Source: Naegleria gruberi | Lineage: Eukaryota | DNA: 10,458 nucleotides | NCBI GenBank assembly: GCA_000004985.1 | Contig: GG739024.1 | Reading direction: 5' to 3' (one strand) | In this document: piece after piece, positions 297 through 10,458 of the stretch | Position numbering within the stretch: position 1 is the stretch's first letter | Layout: the number at the start of each line of letters is the position of its first letter | The notes under the pieces: model-generated | Told to the model about the DNA's origin: nothing | Database searches by the model: none | Seen by the model: the letters and a program-made list of their open reading frames with translations, nothing else | Program-made: the position numbers and the translations under genes

Positions 297-923
297 ATGG
301 GATCCAAACCCTTTGGATTAAACCAAGATTTGCACAAAGCATTTGAATATTTTGAAAATTCTGCTGAATTGGGATGTATTGATGGAATTTTCAGAGTAGC
401 TTATGCCTACCACAGTGGTGAGGGTGTTAAATTGGATTATTCAAAGGCAATGGAATATTATTTGAAAGCTGCAGAGATGGGAGATGCTTTGGCAAAGAAT
501 AATATTGCAGACATGTATTTGAAAGGCCAGGGAGTTCAACAAAATTTTCAAACAGCTCTCAAGTGGATCAAAGAAGCAATGGAACAAGGTAATTGTGGCG
601 ATAGTTTTGCAACTTATGGAGAAATGCTTTTTAATGGAAATGGTGTGGAAAAAGATTACAATACGGCCTTTGACCATTTTAAAAGATCATCAGATACTGG
701 AGAAAATTATTTCGCACATTTTCTGCTTGGAAGGATGTATGAGTATGGATGGGGTTGTAAAAAGGATATCAATAAGGCTTATGTACTATATTTGAGAGGA
801 GCCAAAGATGGAGATGATGCTGCTATTGCTAGATTGGAAAGCCCATTCAAGAATTCGTTATTTACGAAATCGTTCCACCTATTTGATACAGTAATATTAA
901 CGGTGGAAAATGAAGATAGTTGA
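297..923 (+). CDS. Sel1-like repeat (TPR-like) protein, 208 aa. At least four Sel1 repeats and no N-terminal signal peptide.
   Basis: Uninterrupted ORF ending in TGA. Sel1 signature units recur about every 36 aa: AYAYHSGEGVKLDYSKAMEYYLKAAEMG, NIADMYLKGQGVQQNFQTALKWIKEAMEQG, ATYGEMLFNGNGVEKDYNTAFDHFKRSSDTG, FLLGRMYEYGWGCKKDINKAYVLYLRGAKDG. Codon usage (ttg Leu, aga Arg, caa Gln, ggt/gga Gly) matches the other genes here. ATG sits in a purine -3 context (gacATGg). The overlapping ORFs 441..677(-) and 595..795(+) are spurious. Confidence 0.7.
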   Translation: MGSKPFGLNQDLHKAFEYFENSAELGCIDGIFRVAYAYHSGEGVKLDYSKAMEYYLKAAEMGDALAKNNIADMYLKGQGVQQNFQTALKWIKEAMEQGNCGDSFATYGEMLFNGNGVEKDYNTAFDHFKRSSDTGENYFAHFLLGRMYEYGWGCKKDINKAYVLYLRGAKDGDDAAIARLESPFKNSLFTKSFHLFDTVILTVENEDS

Positions 924-1022: not shown

Positions 1023-1456
1023 TTACCAACGTTCAGCAACTTGTGGATTGTTGATAGCTGCCAAAAGTTCCTTAATTCTTGCATCGGTTTGCACGTTAAC
1101 TCTTGAATAAATGTATGGATTGGTGAGTTTCAAATCTTGAATGCTCTCCTTTAATTGTTCGAATTCTTTCAAAACCTGTCTCAATTCATCCTTTGATCTA
1201 CACAAGTAATCTTTACAGAGAATCTTTTGGAAAACTAATCTGGCATCATTATCATATTTTTCCATATAAAAGTCCATTGCTTCTAAACACTTATCAGCAT
1301 ACCCAAGAGCAATCATTCCATTAGCAGCATAACAAAGAGAATCAATAACAAAACTTGGATCCACAACTGATTCAAATCTTTCAACAGAAGAATAGGCATT
1401 GACTGCTAATTCATACATGTCACAAGCATAATAGCAACCTCCCTTAATCATATAAC
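1023..1456 (-). CDS. C-terminal fragment (at least 144 aa) of an alpha-helical repeat, TPR-like protein. The 5' part of the gene lies in assembly gap 1.
   Basis: The minus-strand ORF stays open from the gap edge (the codon continues into the Ns at 1455-1457) to TAA, which is the reverse complement of 1023..1025. Helical hairpin-like segments are present (CYYACDMYELAVNAYSSVERFE, IALGYADKCLEAMDFYMEKYDNDARLVFQKIL). Codon usage is consistent. Family is not assignable by eye. The M at 1451 is only the first in-frame Met after the gap, not the start. Confidence 0.55.
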
Positions 1457-2695: not shown

Positions 2696-3238
2696 TCAAC
2701 CCTTCTTCATCAAGACATATGACTTCATACCAACATTTGATTTGAAGAATCTAACTTGCATGTTAACTGGATCATTAGTTTTTGGAAAGGTTTTGTAACA
2801 AAAATTAATGATATCACAAACTTCAACAAATAAGTGATTAGTTTCCAATTGAACAGGAGTAGGATGATTTCTACGATATTCAATAATATTTTCAGTTAAT
2901 TTCTTAAATTTGTCCTCAAGCACTTGATAATTTTTGATCAATTCATTCTGTTCTTGTTCGGAATAAACTGCTTTCTCTGCTGCTTGTTGTTTAGCCTTTT
3001 TCAAATCAAAGAACATTTTACTACTTGTTGTATGATAATTTCTTCTATTTGCAATTTCCATTGAAAAGTTTAATTGATGATGCTTTCCGACATTGATCAG
3101 TGGTACGGAATTAAAATTAATCATCATCAATCCACAACTACCACCAACAAGAATAGAACCATTCTTGAGAGATGATGAGGATCCTCGAGAAGCAGTAATA
3201 ATTGATGATGAGAGAACCTTGTTGGCAAGTGTTTTCAT
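2696..3238 (-). CDS. Hypothetical protein, 181 aa, starting MKTLANKVLSSS. N-terminus is basic and hydroxyl-rich (possible mitochondrial presequence), followed by a short hydrophobic stretch and a helical K/E/Q-rich C-terminal half.
   Basis: Minus-strand ORF 2696..3319 ending TGA (reverse complement of tca at 2696..2698). The preferred start is the ATG at 3236..3238, which sits immediately downstream of an A10-AA-A8 tract in an excellent A-rich context. The upstream 27 codons of the track ORF (..FTKKIKKKM) are simply the poly-A tract being translated. The N-terminus MKTLANKVLSSSIITASRGSSSSLKNGS has no acidic residues. ILVGGSCGLMMINFNSVPLI is hydrophobic. Codon usage is good (ggt, aga, caa, ttg). 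Confidence 0.5.
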   Translation of the reverse strand: MKTLANKVLSSSIITASRGSSSSLKNGSILVGGSCGLMMINFNSVPLINVGKHHQLNFSMEIANRRNYHTTSSKMFFDLKKAKQQAAEKAVYSEQEQNELIKNYQVLEDKFKKLTENIIEYRRNHPTPVQLETNHLFVEVCDIINFCYKTFPKTNDPVNMQVRFFKSNVGMKSYVLMKKG

Positions 3239-4570: not shown

Positions 4571-4942
4571 TTATTTTGATTCAGTGATAGGAGCTACAAT
4601 TAATGTATTTTCATCTTCCTTTGATAAACTCAATTTGATTTCTAAAGTATTCTCATTAATGTTTGAATGGAAATCTTGTTGTTTTGCGTTCATTACAATG
4701 GACAAAGCGTTCAGAGGAAGTTTCTTTTCTAATAATGGCTTCACAATTTCTACTATGCAGGAAATACAAGTAGTTCCTGTCATTATTTGAGCCATCGGTG
4801 TGCTTAGATCCTCAAGAGATGGAAAGAAGGTTACTGTAAACATAACACCGGTTTCTTCCTTGATGTGCTCGATGAATTGATCAACAGCTCTTTCCATTTT
4901 CCAATTCCTAATACTCTTACCAATAGAGGTTGCAATTATCAT
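4571..4942 (-). CDS. Small protein, 123 aa, with a pattern compatible with a Roadblock/LC7-like (LAMTOR/dynein light chain) fold. This is a hypothesis only.
   Basis: The complete minus-strand ORF (ATG is the reverse complement of 4940..4942, with an in-frame TGA 13 codons upstream) has balanced composition and good codon usage. The plus-strand ORFs covering the same bases (4530..4790, 4865..) are F/S-rich and look like antisense noise. AVDQFIEHIKEETGVMFTVTFF resembles the N-helix plus first beta-strand of Roadblock proteins (compare [21 protein letters not shown] in LAMTOR5). The C-terminal EIKLSLSKEDENTLIVAP resembles the terminal strand (compare LRIRSKKNEIMVAP in DYNLRB). The resemblance was judged by eye. 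Confidence 0.5.
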   Translation of the reverse strand: MIIATSIGKSIRNWKMERAVDQFIEHIKEETGVMFTVTFFPSLEDLSTPMAQIMTGTTCISCIVEIVKPLLEKKLPLNALSIVMNAKQQDFHSNINENTLEIKLSLSKEDENTLIVAPITESK

Positions 4943-4987
4943 GTCATCAGAGATGTTTTTGGAAATTCTTGGTGTTTCAAATCAAAT

Positions 4988-7900
4988 NNNNNNNNNNNNN
5001 NNNNNNNNNNNNNNNNNNNNNNNNNNNNNNNNNNNNNNNNNNNNNNNNNNNNNNNNNNNNNNNNNNNNNNNNNNNNNNNNNNNNNNNNNNNNNNNNNNNN
5101 NNNNNNNNNNNNNNNNNNNNNNNNNNNNNNNNNNNNNNNNNNNNNNNNNNNNNNNNNNNNNNNNNNNNNNNNNNNNNNNNNNNNNNNNNNNNNNNNNNNN
5201 NNNNNNNNNNNNNNNNNNNNNNNNNNNNNNNNNNNNNNNNNNNNNNNNNNNNNNNNNNNNNNNNNNNNNNNNNNNNNNNNNNNNNNNNNNNNNNNNNNNN
5301 NNNNNNNNNNNNNNNNNNNNNNNNNNNNNNNNNNNNNNNNNNNNNNNNNNNNNNNNNNNNNNNNNNNNNNNNNNNNNNNNNNNNNNNNNNNNNNNNNNNN
5401 NNNNNNNNNNNNNNNNNNNNNNNNNNNNNNNNNNNNNNNNNNNNNNNNNNNNNNNNNNNNNNNNNNNNNNNNNNNNNNNNNNNNNNNNNNNNNNNNNNNN
5501 NNNNNNNNNNNNNNNNNNNNNNNNNNNNNNNNNNNNNNNNNNNNNNNNNNNNNNNNNNNNNNNNNNNNNNNNNNNNNNNNNNNNNNNNNNNNNNNNNNNN
5601 NNNNNNNNNNNNNNNNNNNNNNNNNNNNNNNNNNNNNNNNNNNNNNNNNNNNNNNNNNNNNNNNNNNNNNNNNNNNNNNNNNNNNNNNNNNNNNNNNNNN
5701 NNNNNNNNNNNNNNNNNNNNNNNNNNNNNNNNNNNNNNNNNNNNNNNNNNNNNNNNNNNNNNNNNNNNNNNNNNNNNNNNNNNNNNNNNNNNNNNNNNNN
5801 NNNNNNNNNNNNNNNNNNNNNNNNNNNNNNNNNNNNNNNNNNNNNNNNNNNNNNNNNNNNNNNNNNNNNNNNNNNNNNNNNNNNNNNNNNNNNNNNNNNN
5901 NNNNNNNNNNNNNNNNNNNNNNNNNNNNNNNNNNNNNNNNNNNNNNNNNNNNNNNNNNNNNNNNNNNNNNNNNNNNNNNNNNNNNNNNNNNNNNNNNNNN
6001 NNNNNNNNNNNNNNNNNNNNNNNNNNNNNNNNNNNNNNNNNNNNNNNNNNNNNNNNNNNNNNNNNNNNNNNNNNNNNNNNNNNNNNNNNNNNNNNNNNNN
6101 NNNNNNNNNNNNNNNNNNNNNNNNNNNNNNNNNNNNNNNNNNNNNNNNNNNNNNNNNNNNNNNNNNNNNNNNNNNNNNNNNNNNNNNNNNNNNNNNNNNN
6201 NNNNNNNNNNNNNNNNNNNNNNNNNNNNNNNNNNNNNNNNNNNNNNNNNNNNNNNNNNNNNNNNNNNNNNNNNNNNNNNNNNNNNNNNNNNNNNNNNNNN
6301 NNNNNNNNNNNNNNNNNNNNNNNNNNNNNNNNNNNNNNNNNNNNNNNNNNNNNNNNNNNNNNNNNNNNNNNNNNNNNNNNNNNNNNNNNNNNNNNNNNNN
6401 NNNNNNNNNNNNNNNNNNNNNNNNNNNNNNNNNNNNNNNNNNNNNNNNNNNNNNNNNNNNNNNNNNNNNNNNNNNNNNNNNNNNNNNNNNNNNNNNNNNN
6501 NNNNNNNNNNNNNNNNNNNNNNNNNNNNNNNNNNNNNNNNNNNNNNNNNNNNNNNNNNNNNNNNNNNNNNNNNNNNNNNNNNNNNNNNNNNNNNNNNNNN
6601 NNNNNNNNNNNNNNNNNNNNNNNNNNNNNNNNNNNNNNNNNNNNNNNNNNNNNNNNNNNNNNNNNNNNNNNNNNNNNNNNNNNNNNNNNNNNNNNNNNNN
6701 NNNNNNNNNNNNNNNNNNNNNNNNNNNNNNNNNNNNNNNNNNNNNNNNNNNNNNNNNNNNNNNNNNNNNNNNNNNNNNNNNNNNNNNNNNNNNNNNNNNN
6801 NNNNNNNNNNNNNNNNNNNNNNNNNNNNNNNNNNNNNNNNNNNNNNNNNNNNNNNNNNNNNNNNNNNNNNNNNNNNNNNNNNNNNNNNNNNNNNNNNNNN
6901 NNNNNNNNNNNNNNNNNNNNNNNNNNNNNNNNNNNNNNNNNNNNNNNNNNNNNNNNNNNNNNNNNNNNNNNNNNNNNNNNNNNNNNNNNNNNNNNNNNNN
7001 NNNNNNNNNNNNNNNNNNNNNNNNNNNNNNNNNNNNNNNNNNNNNNNNNNNNNNNNNNNNNNNNNNNNNNNNNNNNNNNNNNNNNNNNNNNNNNNNNNNN
7101 NNNNNNNNNNNNNNNNNNNNNNNNNNNNNNNNNNNNNNNNNNNNNNNNNNNNNNNNNNNNNNNNNNNNNNNNNNNNNNNNNNNNNNNNNNNNNNNNNNNN
7201 NNNNNNNNNNNNNNNNNNNNNNNNNNNNNNNNNNNNNNNNNNNNNNNNNNNNNNNNNNNNNNNNNNNNNNNNNNNNNNNNNNNNNNNNNNNNNNNNNNNN
7301 NNNNNNNNNNNNNNNNNNNNNNNNNNNNNNNNNNNNNNNNNNNNNNNNNNNNNNNNNNNNNNNNNNNNNNNNNNNNNNNNNNNNNNNNNNNNNNNNNNNN
7401 NNNNNNNNNNNNNNNNNNNNNNNNNNNNNNNNNNNNNNNNNNNNNNNNNNNNNNNNNNNNNNNNNNNNNNNNNNNNNNNNNNNNNNNNNNNNNNNNNNNN
7501 NNNNNNNNNNNNNNNNNNNNNNNNNNNNNNNNNNNNNNNNNNNNNNNNNNNNNNNNNNNNNNNNNNNNNNNNNNNNNNNNNNNNNNNNNNNNNNNNNNNN
7601 NNNNNNNNNNNNNNNNNNNNNNNNNNNNNNNNNNNNNNNNNNNNNNNNNNNNNNNNNNNNNNNNNNNNNNNNNNNNNNNNNNNNNNNNNNNNNNNNNNNN
7701 NNNNNNNNNNNNNNNNNNNNNNNNNNNNNNNNNNNNNNNNNNNNNNNNNNNNNNNNNNNNNNNNNNNNNNNNNNNNNNNNNNNNNNNNNNNNNNNNNNNN
7801 NNNNNNNNNNNNNNNNNNNNNNNNNNNNNNNNNNNNNNNNNNNNNNNNNNNNNNNNNNNNNNNNNNNNNNNNNNNNNNNNNNNNNNNNNNNNNNNNNNNN

Positions 7901-8700
7901 NNNNNNNNNNNNNNNNNNNNNNNNNNNNNNNNNNNNNNNNNNNNNNNNNNNNNNNNNNNNNNNNNNNNNNNNNNNNNNNNNNNNNNNNNNNNNNNNNNNN
8001 NNNNNNNNNNNNNNNNNNNNNNNNNNNNNNNNNNNNNNNNNNNNNNNNNNNNNNNNNNNNNNNNNNNNNNNNNNNNNNNNNNNNNNNNNNNNNNNNNNNN
8101 NNNNNNNNNNNNNNNNNNNNNNNNNNNNNNNNNNNNNNNNNNNNNNNNNNNNNNNNNNNNNNNNNNNNNNNNNNNNNNNNNNNNNNNNNNNNNNNNNNNN
8201 NNNNNNNNNNNNNNNNNNNNNNNNNNNNNNNNNNNNNNNNNNNNNNNNNNNNNNNNNNNNNNNNNNNNNNNNNNNNNNNNNNNNNNNNNNNNNNNNNNNN
8301 NNNNNNNNNNNNNNNNNNNNNNNNNNNNNNNNNNNNNNNNNNNNNNNNNNNNNNNNNNNNNNNNNNNNNNNNNNNNNNNNNNNNNNNNNNNNNNNNNNNN
8401 NNNNNNNNNNNNNNNNNNNNNNNNNNNNNNNNNNNNNNNNNNNNNNNNNNNNNNNNNNNNNNNNNNNNNNNNNNNNNNNNNNNNNNNNNNNNNNNNNNNN
8501 NNNNNNNNNNNNNNNNNNNNNNNNNNNNNNNNNNNNNNNNNNNNNNNNNNNNNNNNNNNNNNNNNNNNNNNNNNNNNNNNNNNNNNNNNNNNNNNNNNNN
8601 NNNNNNNNNNNNNNNNNNNNNNNNNNNNNNNNNNNNNNNNNNNNNNNNNNNNNNNNNNNNNNNNNNNNNNNNNNNNNNNNNNNNNNNNNNNNNNNNNNNN
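4988..8700. other. Assembly gap, 3713 N.
   Basis: Contiguous run of n. The X-filled ORFs 4865..8767, 4930..8724 and 4941..8705 are artefacts. Confidence 0.99.
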
Positions 8701-8701
8701 T

Positions 8702-9409
8702 TTAAGTCCTCATTGCCTTCATAAAGTAATTTCTCCTCTCCTCAGTAATTGTGAATGGTTTTTCTAATTGCTCTGGTAATGCCTCTACCAGTGCTTGAAT
8801 GATTGGAAGGAGAACCTTATCAGATTCAATAGATTTCGGAATTTGAATTGAAGTTAGAACGGCTTTGTCATTCTTATCATCCACTTGTTGAATCATGGTT
8901 GCAATTACTGTAGAATATCCTCTCACCCTAACAAAAACAATTGTTTCCATATCAATATCACCCCCCTCAATATCCAAGAAAAAGCAATCAGGAAAACAGT
9001 TATTCATCTCGAAATAGTAAACATCATCATTGGCCACATACTTGTTGGTCTCACCAGAACTGAGCCACTTTCCCCAAGTTGACAACAATTGCTCATCTCG
9101 TTTTTCATACTTTGAAAGAGCTCTCGATACTTTCTTTTCTGCTATTGAGGATTTTTTATCCTCAGTTGATGTATTTGATGTATTTACAGGATCTTGTTCT
9201 TGTTTTGTTTGAATATGATGAGAGGATTTTTCTGCTGATAGTGATGATGACGAAGCTTGTTTTACCTCCTCCTTCTTTGCCTCGGTATGTTGCTTTTGAT
9301 CGTTCTTTGAAACACTCGATCTCAGCACCTTCTTTGGTTTTTCAGTGGAAATCCTTTGAGGTTCTTCAACATTCTTCAATTGCTTTTGTGTTGAACAGGC
9401 TGAACCCAT
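8702..9409 (-). CDS. Protein of 235 aa with an N-terminal dual-acylation motif (MGSACS: Gly2, Cys5, Ser6), a K/S/E-rich low-complexity linker and a C-terminal globular domain of about 120 aa of unrecognised family.
   Basis: Uninterrupted minus-strand ORF. ATG is the reverse complement of 9407..9409, in the context aaaagATGg. TAA stop is the reverse complement of 8702..8704, directly abutting gap 2. MGSACS fits the N-myristoyltransferase consensus M-G-x-x-x-S/T, with Cys5 available for palmitoylation (SH4-like). Residues 10-110 are basic/Ser-rich (KPKKVLRSSVSKNDQKQHTEAKKEEVKQASSSSLSAEKSS). The C-terminus has an alternating hydrophobic pattern (TIVFVRVRGYSTVIATMIQQ, VLLPIIQALVEALPEQL). All 14 Gln codons are CAA/CAG. 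Confidence 0.6.
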   Translation of the reverse strand: MGSACSTQKQLKNVEEPQRISTEKPKKVLRSSVSKNDQKQHTEAKKEEVKQASSSSLSAEKSSHHIQTKQEQDPVNTSNTSTEDKKSSIAEKKVSRALSKYEKRDEQLLSTWGKWLSSGETNKYVANDDVYYFEMNNCFPDCFFLDIEGGDIDMETIVFVRVRGYSTVIATMIQQVDDKNDKAVLTSIQIPKSIESDKVLLPIIQALVEALPEQLEKPFTITEERRNYFMKAMRT

Positions 9410-9718
9410 CTTTTCTAATATCTACGAATAACTTTGCAAAATACAACAGTGAACCTTTTTTTTTAAGCAGAGTGAGAGATGATGGCTAGTGAGTGTATTG
9501 AGGCAATTTTTTTAAAGTTCCTTCCGAGAAGTTGAACACTCTTTTGGTACTTCTGAACTCATTAAGAGAAATTTTTGACTGTACGTGTTCTTAAATTCCT
9601 TTTTGTTAAAGTAGTGTTGATGACGTATTGCTGGTGATGCTATTAAATATAATGGAGATGACAATTTTCTGAGTATAGTACTCAATTATGCCATCAGAAA
9701 GAGATTAATTATACATCA

Positions 9719-9728
9719 CCTATAAGGC
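9719..9728 (+). promoter_or_regulatory. TATA-like element (TATAAG) about 75-80 bp upstream of the EML start codon.
   Basis: tataaggctctcccgcc begins at 9721. Spacing to the ATG at 9801 is typical for yeast-like promoters. Sequence-only inference. Confidence 0.3.
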
Positions 9729-9800
9729 TCTCCCGCCAAAATTAGATGAACTTAAAGTACAAATATTTGAGCAGAGATAAAAACAACCAAACTGAAAAAA

Positions 9801-10090
9801 ATGTCTTCAAAACAAATCGATAAATACCCAAGGTTCTTGAAAACAACTCATCCACCTCCAAACTCATCGGGATTGATGGAATCAAATCCTGAGAAGCCAT
9901 TATCCAAGCTAAAGATTGAATATATTCATGGATGCTCAAAGAAGGGTTGTTATGGAAACGTGTTTCATGTTGATGATGAACAGCATTTAGTCTATCCTGC
10001 TGCTGGTTGTGGGGTAGTGCTTAATGTTGAGGATAACACTCAAAAGGTATTCTGCAAGCATGATGATGATGTTGTTGCTTTGGCTAAACA
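9801..10090 (+). CDS. EMAP-like (EML/EMAP family) microtubule-associated WD-repeat protein, exon 1. N-terminus plus the HELP motif.
   Basis: ATG in the context aaaaaaATGtct. IEYIHGCSKKGCYGNVFHVDDEQHLVYPAAGCGVVLNVEDNTQKVFCKHDDDVVALAK aligns to the EML HELP / first propeller blade consensus (..WVYGYRGRDCRNNLY.L..GEIVY..A.V.VLYNV....QR.Y.GH.DDI.CLA..). The exon ends at ..aaaca|GTATGT. Confidence 0.8.
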
Positions 10091-10144
10091 GTATGTTGTT
10101 GATATCAAATTGTTATATTATTGACACCCTATTATTAACAACAG
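10091..10144 (+). other. Spliceosomal intron of 54 nt, phase 2, within the EML gene.
   Basis: Donor GTATGT is at 10091. The acceptor ..tattaacaacAG ends at 10144, with a TAYTAAC-like branch sequence (tattaac) about 7 nt upstream of the AG. The track's in-frame TGA at 10122..10124 lies inside the intron. Splicing joins ..HDDDVVALAK to HPNGRYFASGQMGKDD, reproducing the conserved EML segment (..DDILCLAIHPDRV.VATGQVGKD). Confidence 0.7.
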
Positions 10145-10458
10145 TCCAAATGGTAGATACTTTGCTTCGGGGCAAATGGGAAAGGATGATATGATTTACA
10201 TTTGGGACAGTCACCAACCTGAGGCAGGTCCAATTAAGGCACTCAAAACAAACACCCAATTCAAAAATGGAGGTGTGTTAACTTGTTGCTTTTCAACCGA
10301 AGGATCCTTACTAGCCTGTGTTGGTGGTAGTCCTAAAATGAACATTATTTTAATTTATGATTGGAATAAGGGAACATGTCTTGCCAATGTGAAAGGAACT
10401 AATGAGGAAGTATATGCTTTATGTTTTTCAAAGAGATGACAATAATTTGACTTGTGTG
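10145..10458 (+). CDS. EML/EMAP-like protein, exon 2 (partial; continues beyond the window). WD blades. Contains an apparent +1 frameshift at the T5 run 10424..10428.
   Basis: (H)PNGRYFASGQMGKDDMIYIWDS..GGVLTCCFS..LLACVGGSPKMNIILIYDWNKGTCLANVKGTNEEVYALCF matches the EML segment HPD..ATGQ..VRVWDS..GVGCLDFS..HLCVIDDSNEHMLTVWDW..KTTNEVVLAVEF. After 10428 the homologous residues (QRDDNNLTCV, about HPTD.NTIITCG) are in the +1 frame. The frame-0 TGA at 10437..10439 is therefore not the true stop. Confidence 0.75.

What the first reader, a model, noticed from the sequence alone, without database searches (positions are those of the whole stretch)
8702..9409. Dual-acylation (myristoyl-Gly2 / palmitoyl-Cys5) N-terminus on a protein with an unassigned C-terminal domain
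MGSACST satisfies the NMT consensus (G2, small residues at 3-5, S6), with Cys5 positioned for S-palmitoylation. This SH4-type signal targets proteins to the plasma membrane or endomembranes. It is followed by a long lysine/serine-rich, probably phospho-regulated linker and a compact C-terminal domain that I cannot place in any family by eye. It is not AMPK-beta-like, not LAMTOR1-like, and not calcineurin-B or ARF-like. That makes it a candidate new membrane-anchored adaptor. It is transcribed divergently from the EML gene across a 390-bp intergenic region.
Basis: partly seen in the sequence, partly recalled or inferred. Interest (0 to 1): 0.5.

Follow-up and report, generated by a model that had tools for sequence, protein, structure and literature searches.

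The report
Gap-truncated fragment of acylated ankyrin protein
The 235-residue "adaptor" is only the first 15% of a 1,578-residue Naegleria gruberi ankyrin-repeat protein, cut short by an assembly gap and a sequencing error; its lipid-anchor signal at the start (MGSAC...) is there and is conserved in a second species, but nothing else about it is unusual.

Summary
The ORF at 8702..9409(-) exists and begins MGSACST. This fits the N-myristoylation consensus, and Cys5 is placed for palmitoylation. The window is a whole 10,458-bp Naegleria gruberi scaffold with two N-runs.

The 235-aa model (NAEGRDRAFT_54743) shares a 90%-identity cluster with NAEGRDRAFT_73916, a 1,578-aa protein on a 250-kb scaffold. 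The two agree up to ...RRNYF. There the window lacks one base, 20 nt from the N-run, and reads MKAMRT-stop instead of IEGNEDFK. Past the N-run, window 4981..4574(-) encodes the last 136 residues of the long protein exactly. The gap length (3,741 nt) fits the missing 1,216 codons (3,648 nt). The neighbouring gene is truncated in the same way at the other gap.

So the "compact C-terminal domain" is an internal domain. Ankyrin repeats and about 1,150 residues with no recognised family follow it.

The only other relative found is a collinear 1,585-aa Naegleria lovaniensis protein. It keeps MGSAC(A)TQ (7 of 8 residues, against 29% identity in the rest of the linker).

Best reading: a lineage-restricted ankyrin scaffold, probably held on a membrane by two lipid groups. 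The small-adaptor idea comes from an annotation artefact. Interest is low.

The parts
9389..9409 (-). Codons 1-7, MGSACST: predicted N-myristoylation at Gly2 and S-palmitoylation at Cys5
   Evidence: Sequence read. The NMT pattern test is true for the window copy, the full-length N. gruberi copy and the N. lovaniensis orthologue. 7 of 8 residues are identical between the species.
9422..9424 (-). In-frame TAG stop 5 codons upstream of the ATG; fixes the start unless there is an upstream exon
   Evidence: Read. The N. lovaniensis gene also has an in-frame stop, 11 codons upstream of its MGSAC start.
9095..9388 (-). Codons 8-105: hydrophilic Ser/Lys-rich linker, including the conserved VEEPQ block (codons 14-18, window 9356-9370)
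   Evidence: Composition and hydropathy. The region is poorly conserved and varies in length between species, apart from VEEPQ. Both structure models show no confident structure here.
8723..9094 (-). Codons 106-229: conserved domain of unassigned fold (helix, then 3-5 strands, then helices). This is an internal domain of the full protein, not its C-terminus
   Evidence: Aligns to N. lovaniensis residues about 135-259. No Pfam or PDB sequence hit. AlphaFold2 pLDDT is below 50 with 1 or 3 sequences.
8701..8722 (-). Frameshifted contig end: reads MKAMRT-stop (TAA at 8702-8704), while another frame reads EGNEDL, matching IEGNEDFK of the full-length copy. The stop is false
   Evidence: Three-frame translation against P0003; P0003 sequence.
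4988..8700 (.). Run of 3,713 N (assembly gap) hiding about 1,216 codons of the gene, including the ankyrin repeats
   Evidence: N-run coordinates. The window distance between the last and first matching codons is 3,741 nt, against 3,648 nt expected from P0003. The N. lovaniensis gene is an intronless 4,758-nt ORF.
4982..4987 (-). Contig end on the far side of the gap: reads I-stop (TGA at 4982-4984), where the full-length copy reads SFE. A second 1-nt deletion
4571..4981 (-). Last 136 codons plus the true stop of the gene (FETPRISK...APITESK-stop)
   Evidence: 100% identical to the C-terminus of P0003. Aligns to N. lovaniensis residues 1466-1570 with score 103, against 39.7 +/- 5.1 for shuffles; 0 of 300 shuffles reach it.
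9410..9800 (.). 391-bp divergent intergenic region between this gene and the EML-like gene that starts at 9801(+)

Best explanation
The ORF is the 5' end of a second, gapped copy of the N. gruberi gene NAEGRDRAFT_73916. The copy is probably allelic.

Shown:
- The real product has about 1,578 residues.
- The 235-aa model NAEGRDRAFT_54743 ends at a false TAA. A 1-nt deletion creates it 20 nt before the contig end.
- The middle of the gene lies in the 3.7-kb assembly gap, and the last 136 codons resume at 4981..4574(-).
- The full-length architecture is: MGSAC N-terminus; a Ser/Lys-rich linker of about 100 residues; a conserved domain of about 125 residues with unassigned fold; ankyrin repeats at about 268-400; then about 1,150 residues matching no recognised family, apart from one weak, sub-threshold ankyrin match (residues ~1028-1114). 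There is no transmembrane segment.

Inferred mechanism:
- The initiator Met is removed and NMT myristoylates Gly2 during translation.
- The weakly membrane-bound protein is then S-palmitoylated on Cys5 by a membrane DHHC enzyme. Nearby basic residues (K9, K12, K24-27, R30) add to the binding.
- This holds the N-terminus stably on the plasma membrane or an endomembrane.
- The flexible linker then presents the ankyrin repeats and the rest of the protein as a binding platform for other proteins at that membrane. Its partners are unknown.
For: Truncation:
- P0001 (235 aa) and P0003 (1,578 aa, on a 250,472-bp scaffold) share one 90%-identity cluster.
- P0003 matches the window protein over residues 1-229, with 4 substitutions and one 3-aa indel. 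It then continues IEGNEDFKNLMQ, which the window encodes in a shifted frame as EGNEDL.
- Window 4981..4574(-) equals the last 136 residues of P0003 exactly.
- The gap arithmetic fits: 3,741 nt in the window against 3,648 nt expected.
- The adjacent window gene model (180 aa, EFC35793) is likewise the N-terminus of a 646-aa protein, EFC38279. That accession is adjacent to P0003's, on the same scaffold. An extra G 38 nt from the other gap breaks it, and its C-terminus resumes at 1451..1026(-) with 139 of 142 residues identical.
- The N. lovaniensis orthologue P0002 (1,585 aa, intronless) is collinear over its whole length at 32% identity.

Acylation:
- The consensus is met in all three sequences.
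- In-frame stops lie upstream of the ATG in both species.
- The first 8 residues are 7/8 identical, against 29% in the rest of the linker.
- No transmembrane-like segment is shared between the orthologues.

Ankyrin repeats:
- Ank_2 scores 31.3 bits against a cut-off of 27.3 in P0002.
- Ank_4 scores 26.5 bits against 22.7 in P0003 residues 231-460.
- This part of the 3-sequence AlphaFold2 model has pLDDT 60-79.
Against: - I could not fetch the DNA of the 250-kb scaffold. The deletions are therefore inferred from protein and frame comparison, not from a DNA alignment.
- A genuine frameshift allele cannot be formally excluded.
- Lipidation is only predicted. No NMT or palmitoylation predictor was available, and there are no experimental data.
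- Position 6 is Ser in N. gruberi but Ala in N. lovaniensis. Ala is allowed but less favoured.
- The scaffold function is inferred from ankyrin repeats that cover under 10% of the protein. The other 1,150 residues could hold an enzymatic or other domain that I could not detect.
Confidence: 0.88

Rival explanations
1. The 235-aa ORF is a real short protein. A recent duplicate or allele of the long gene acquired a true frameshift, so the cell makes a lipid-anchored fragment (anchor, linker and one domain). This fragment would be either a pseudogene product or a new short adaptor.
For: - The stop codon is present in the deposited sequence.
- The window copy differs from the long copy by 4 substitutions and a 3-aa indel, so it is a distinct sequence and not a duplicate assembly of the same reads.
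- Naegleria is described as a heterozygous diploid (PMC9928731).
Against: - All three frame-breaking indels on this scaffold lie within 40 nt of contig ends next to N-runs (8 nt, 20 nt and 38 nt). That is what low-quality read ends produce, and it is very unlikely for three independent real mutations.
- Coding sequence in the correct order, 100% identical to the long protein, resumes after the gap.
- The shifted frame still encodes the expected residues up to the contig end.
Confidence: 0.05
2. The gene is the long one, but the MGSAC N-terminus is not lipidated, or is only myristoylated. The match to the consensus would be incidental, and the protein would be cytosolic or targeted by other means.
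For: - The NMT pattern is permissive, and many MG-start proteins that fit it are not substrates (general knowledge).
- No predictor or experiment was available here.
- The conservation rests on a single interspecies comparison.
Against: - Gly2 and Cys5 are kept, along with 7 of the first 8 residues, in a linker that is otherwise 29% identical and contains large indels.
- The start codon is secure in both species.
- Basic residues follow the motif in both species.
Confidence: 0.2
3. The N-runs are deliberate masks over real sequence, not assembly gaps, and separate genes lie under them. On that view the 235-aa ORF and the ORF at 4571..4942 would be independent genes.
Against: - The public record is 10,458 bp long, the same as the window, and carries exactly these truncated gene models.
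- The N-run lengths do not match the missing coding lengths exactly: 3,741 against 3,648 nt, and 1,210 against 936 nt. Estimated gap sizes would behave this way.
- In either case the flanks are the two ends of one collinear gene.
Confidence: 0.03

Closest known systems
NAEGRDRAFT_73916 (XP_002671024.1, UniProt D2VXZ7), N. gruberi uncharacterised protein, 1,578 aa
   Same: It is the same gene. Residues 1-229 are about 97% identical to the window ORF, and the last 136 residues are 100% identical to window 4981..4574(-). Its neighbour gene is also shared with the window.
   Different: The window copy is interrupted by a 3.7-kb gap and has 1-nt indels at both contig ends. It also carries 4 substitutions and an extra NTS tripeptide, which suggests the other allele.
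C9374_014602 (XP_044553194.1), Naegleria lovaniensis hypothetical protein, 1,585 aa
   Same: A collinear orthologue at 32% identity over its full length. It has the same MGSAC start, the VEEPQ block, the internal domain, the ankyrin repeats and the C-terminal region, and its gene is intronless.
   Different: Its linker is longer and very different. Position 6 is Ala rather than Ser. Its flanking genes differ, so no synteny with the EML or Sel1 neighbours was detected.
SH4-type dually acylated N-termini (Src-family kinases such as Fyn and Lck; plant CBL1-type calcium sensors)
   Same: Met-Gly start, a small residue at position 3, Ser at position 6 and a nearby Cys for palmitoylation. The expected outcome is stable membrane anchoring. 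This rests on established knowledge; see PMC2132482 and PMC4990929, listed.
   Different: There is no homology beyond the short motif. The Cys is at position 5 rather than 3. The body of the protein is ankyrin repeats plus unassigned sequence, not a kinase or EF-hand protein. Lipidation has not been tested.
Ankyrin-repeat membrane scaffolds (for example animal ankyrins, which are S-palmitoylated)
   Same: Ankyrin repeats combined with a lipid anchor, which suggests a membrane-tethered platform for binding other proteins (inference).
   Different: Only 2-3 repeats are clearly recognised. No spectrin-binding, death or other ankyrin-family domains were found. The resemblance is functional only, and it is not a member of that family.

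Membership tests
N-myristoyltransferase substrates | Initiator Met followed by Gly2; an uncharged, non-bulky residue at position 3; Ser/Thr/Ala/Gly/Cys/Asn at position 6; no Pro at position 7 | tested here: met
   MGSACST matches the pattern in the window copy, P0003 and P0002.
N-myristoyltransferase substrates | Gly2 is truly N-terminal (correct start codon, no upstream coding exon) | tested here: inconclusive
   In-frame stops lie 5 codons upstream in the window and 11 codons upstream in N. lovaniensis, and independent gene models use the same start. No transcript data were available to exclude an upstream spliced exon.
N-myristoyltransferase substrates | Covalent myristate on Gly2 | not testable with these tools
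   Needs metabolic labelling or mass spectrometry.
SH4-type dual acylation (myristoyl plus palmitoyl) | Cys within the first ~6 residues, next to the myristoylated Gly, and conserved | tested here: met
   Cys5 is present in all three sequences. Palmitoylation itself cannot be tested here.
Ankyrin-repeat proteins (Pfam clan Ank) | A Pfam Ank-family match above the gathering score | tested here: met
   For the full-length proteins only: Ank_2 at 31.3 bits against 27.3 in P0002, and Ank_4 at 26.5 bits against 22.7 in P0003 residues 231-460. In the window this region lies inside the N-run, and the 235-aa ORF has no Ank match.
Known small lipid-anchored adaptors or regulators (LAMTOR1, AMPK-beta, calcineurin B/CBL, ARF/ARL) | Sequence match to the family's Pfam domain | tested here: not met
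   No Pfam match better than E = 0.17 for the 235-aa ORF. No PDB sequence match better than E = 0.9. The protein is in any case 1,578 aa long, not small.
Complete, independent 235-aa gene product | A genuine stop codon and no continuation of the reading frame | tested here: not met
   The stop follows a 1-nt deletion 20 nt from a contig end. A shifted frame and the sequence beyond the gap continue the 1,578-aa protein.

The most novel reading that the evidence does not exclude
The full-length 1,578-aa protein may be a Naegleria-restricted, dually lipidated membrane scaffold. Its conserved 125-residue N-terminal domain and its roughly 1,150 residues without a recognised family could be folds or functions not yet described, for example a lineage-specific membrane-associated complex. 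No relative outside Naegleria was detected among 1.84 billion representative proteins, and no family matched beyond 2-3 ankyrin repeats.
Probability: 0.25. Interest if true: 0.3.

Novelty: new member of a known kind. Interest (0 to 1): 0.12.

Why it matters
The result matters mainly as a correction. NAEGRDRAFT_54743 and its neighbour NAEGRDRAFT_76547 are truncated duplicate models, produced by gapped allelic scaffolds with error-prone contig ends. They should not be counted as small orphan proteins.

There is also a database trap. The 235-aa fragment is the representative of its 90%-identity cluster, so it hides the 1,578-aa protein from homology searches.

The biology that remains is modest. 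The real protein is a lineage-restricted ankyrin-repeat protein with a conserved predicted myristoyl/palmitoyl anchor. It could be a useful membrane marker in Naegleria if validated, but it is not a new kind of system.

Tried and rejected
- Pfam scan of the 235-aa ORF: nothing better than E = 0.17.
- PDB sequence search of the ORF: nothing better than E = 0.9.
- AlphaFold2 on the single sequence: mean pLDDT 41.
- AlphaFold2 on P0003 residues 85-430 with a 3-row alignment: mean pLDDT 47. The N-terminal domain stays below 50, and only the ankyrin part reaches 60-79. I therefore ran no fold search, because matches to such a model would be meaningless.
- Word-index homology search with the ORF: found only itself. 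The same search with P0002 also found only itself.
- Profile search with the post-ankyrin alignment A2: returned nothing, not even P0002, whose sequence is one row of A2 (the other row's parent, P0003, is not a cluster representative in that database), so this negative is uninformative.
- tblastx of the window against the N. lovaniensis locus: only the gene itself matches, with no conserved neighbours.
- Exact-sequence contig look-ups for P0001 and P0003: not on record, so no DNA-level comparison of the two N. gruberi copies was possible.
- Literature search for the locus tags and accessions: 0 papers.
- Splice donor before the gap: considered and rejected. The last 60 nt of the coding strand contain no GT, and the shifted frame continues the homologous protein.
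- Transmembrane segment: considered and rejected. The maximum 19-residue hydropathy is about 1.6, at positions that do not correspond between the orthologues.
- Pfam scan of P0003 in overlapping 230-aa pieces: only ankyrin matches, plus one weak ankyrin match at about 1028-1114.

Full report
**What is at the coordinates**

The minus-strand ORF at 8702..9409 encodes 235 residues beginning MGSACSTQKQLKNVEEPQ. The ATG at 9407-9409 is preceded by an in-frame TAG five codons upstream, at 9422-9424. Residues 1-105 are 18% Ser and 17% Lys and strongly hydrophilic. Residues 106-235 have the composition of a folded domain. The next gene on the + strand starts at 9801, 391 bp away, and matches the HELP motif and the EML beta-propeller. 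The ORF's stop codon, TAA at 8702-8704, lies one base from a 3,713-nt run of N at 4988-8700.

**Origin**

The protein is identical to "predicted protein [Naegleria gruberi]" (NAEGRDRAFT_54743, XP_002668538.1). It sits on a record of 10,458 bp, so the window is an entire small scaffold.

**The ORF is a fragment**

A full phmmer scan of 1.84 billion representative proteins found only one other relative, P0002. P0002 is a 1,585-aa hypothetical protein of Naegleria lovaniensis, encoded by an intronless 4,758-nt ORF.
- It begins MGSACATQRSTQHVEEPQ.
- Its first 259 residues align with the whole window ORF.
- Its residues 1466-1570 align with the minus-strand ORF just beyond the N-run, at 4571..4942. 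The score is 103, against 39.7 +/- 5.1 for shuffled sequences, and 0 of 300 shuffles reach it. Both sequences stop about 15 residues later.

An exact-sequence cluster look-up then showed that the 235-aa model shares its 90%-identity cluster with P0003. P0003 is NAEGRDRAFT_73916 (XP_002671024.1, D2VXZ7), a 1,578-aa N. gruberi protein on a 250,472-bp scaffold.
- P0003 equals the window ORF over residues 1-229, apart from 4 substitutions and a 3-residue indel.
- It then continues ...RRNYF-IEGNEDFKNLMQ..., where the window reads ...RRNYF-MKAMRT-stop.
- The window encodes EGNEDL in the adjacent frame, so one base is missing 20 nt before the contig end.
- On the other side of the gap, the window reads I-stop-FETPRISK where P0003 reads SFEFETPRISK, which is another 1-nt deletion 8 nt from the contig end.
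- From FETPR to the stop, all 136 residues are identical to the C-terminus of P0003.
- The span between the last and first matching codons is 3,741 nt in the window. P0003 predicts 3,648 nt, so the estimated gap size fits.

**Independent confirmation from the neighbouring gene**

The window's gene model at 2699..3238(-) is 180 aa long (NAEGRDRAFT_76547, EFC35793). It clusters with a 646-aa protein, NAEGRDRAFT_81647 (EFC38279), on the same 250-kb scaffold. That accession is adjacent to P0003's, which is EFC38280.
- The window reads MKKG-stop where the long protein reads MKKVELLMLKIVNQEW. The continuation is present in a shifted frame, so there is an extra G 38 nt from the edge of the first N-run.
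- The C-terminal 142 residues resume at 1451..1026(-), with 139 of 142 identical.

The scaffold is thus a redundant copy of two adjacent genes and is most likely allelic. Naegleria is described as a heterozygous diploid (PMC9928731). All three frame-breaking indels lie within 40 nt of contig ends, which is the signature of low-quality read ends. A genuine truncating mutation is therefore unlikely (about 5%).

**What the real protein looks like**

P0003 and P0002 are collinear over their full length at 32% identity. The architecture is:
- the MGSAC start;
- a poorly conserved Ser/Lys-rich linker of variable length, containing one conserved block, VEEPQ;
- a conserved domain, N. gruberi residues about 106-230, predicted as a helix followed by 3-5 strands and helices. 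Neither AlphaFold2 run gave a usable model of it (pLDDT below 50), and it has no Pfam or PDB sequence match;
- ankyrin repeats at about 268-400, above Pfam thresholds and modelled with pLDDT 60-79;
- about 1,150 further residues with no family match, apart from one weak ankyrin-like hit at about 1028-1114.

There is no conserved transmembrane-like segment.

**The acylation signal**

MGSAC[S/A]T satisfies the NMT pattern in all three sequences. The first 8 residues are 7/8 identical between species, against 29% for the rest of the linker (P about 1e-3). Both species have in-frame stops just upstream of the ATG. Basic residues follow the motif in both.

From established knowledge of SH4-type signals, the likely mechanism runs as follows. 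Gly2 is myristoylated during translation. A membrane DHHC enzyme then palmitoylates Cys5, and the N-terminus becomes stably attached to a membrane. The ankyrin repeats and the rest of the protein are held there on a flexible linker as an interaction platform. Lipidation and the identity of the membrane are inferred and were not shown here. I rate lipidation at about 0.7-0.8 and the scaffold role at about 0.5.

**Comparison with known families**

The protein is not LAMTOR1-, AMPK-beta-, calcineurin-B- or ARF-like. It resembles SH4-anchored proteins only in the short motif, and ankyrin-type membrane scaffolds only in general logic. The gene is already in public databases as an uncharacterised protein, and no paper mentions its identifiers.

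**Limits**

- I could not fetch the DNA of the 250-kb scaffold, so the indels are inferred from frame comparison.
- The last profile search returned nothing, not even P0002, one of whose sequences made up the query alignment, and it carries no weight.
- Whether N. fowleri or other heteroloboseans have an orthologue is unknown.

**Verdict**

The N-terminal motif is present in the sequence and conserved. The "235-aa adaptor with an unassigned C-terminal domain" is an assembly and annotation artefact. What remains is an ordinary predicted lipid anchor on a lineage-restricted ankyrin-repeat protein. Interest is low, at 0.12.

Noticed in passing
window 2696-3238(-), N-run 1457-2661, and 1023-1451(-): A second gene on the scaffold is truncated in the same way. 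The 180-aa model NAEGRDRAFT_76547 is the N-terminus of the 646-aa NAEGRDRAFT_81647. An extra G near 2697-2700 creates MKKG-stop, and the C-terminal 142 residues resume after the gap with 139 of 142 identical.
   Followed up: yes
protein database cluster of P0001/P0003: The 235-aa fragment is the representative of its 90% cluster, and apparently of its 50% cluster too. Homology searches therefore return the fragment and hide the 1,578-aa full-length protein. It came to light only through the cluster-member look-up.
   Followed up: yes
window 9356-9370(-), codons 14-18: A VEEPQ block in the otherwise divergent linker is identical in N. gruberi and N. lovaniensis. It could be a short binding or modification motif; its function is unknown.
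   Followed up: no
window 297-923(+): An ORF of 208 aa with five Sel1 repeats (Pfam E = 2.3e-36). This exact ORF is not in the protein collection, so the annotated model, if there is one, has different boundaries.
   Followed up: partly
window 9801-10458(+): An EML-like gene (HELP motif plus EML beta-propeller) runs off the scaffold end. Read by eye, a 54-nt GTATGT...AG intron at about 10091-10144 joins ...VVALAK to HPNGRYFASGQMGKDD.
   Followed up: partly
L001 (N. lovaniensis PYSW02000008.1, 593542-618299): The orthologue's neighbours are a MINDY deubiquitinase/U-box gene, an RNB-domain gene, a BTB gene and a dNK gene. None match the window's neighbours (EML, Sel1), so local gene order is not conserved between the two species.
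   Followed up: partly
No N. fowleri orthologue appeared, although N. fowleri is the closest relative of N. lovaniensis. This could reflect gene loss, a missing annotation or database coverage. It was not resolved.
   Followed up: no
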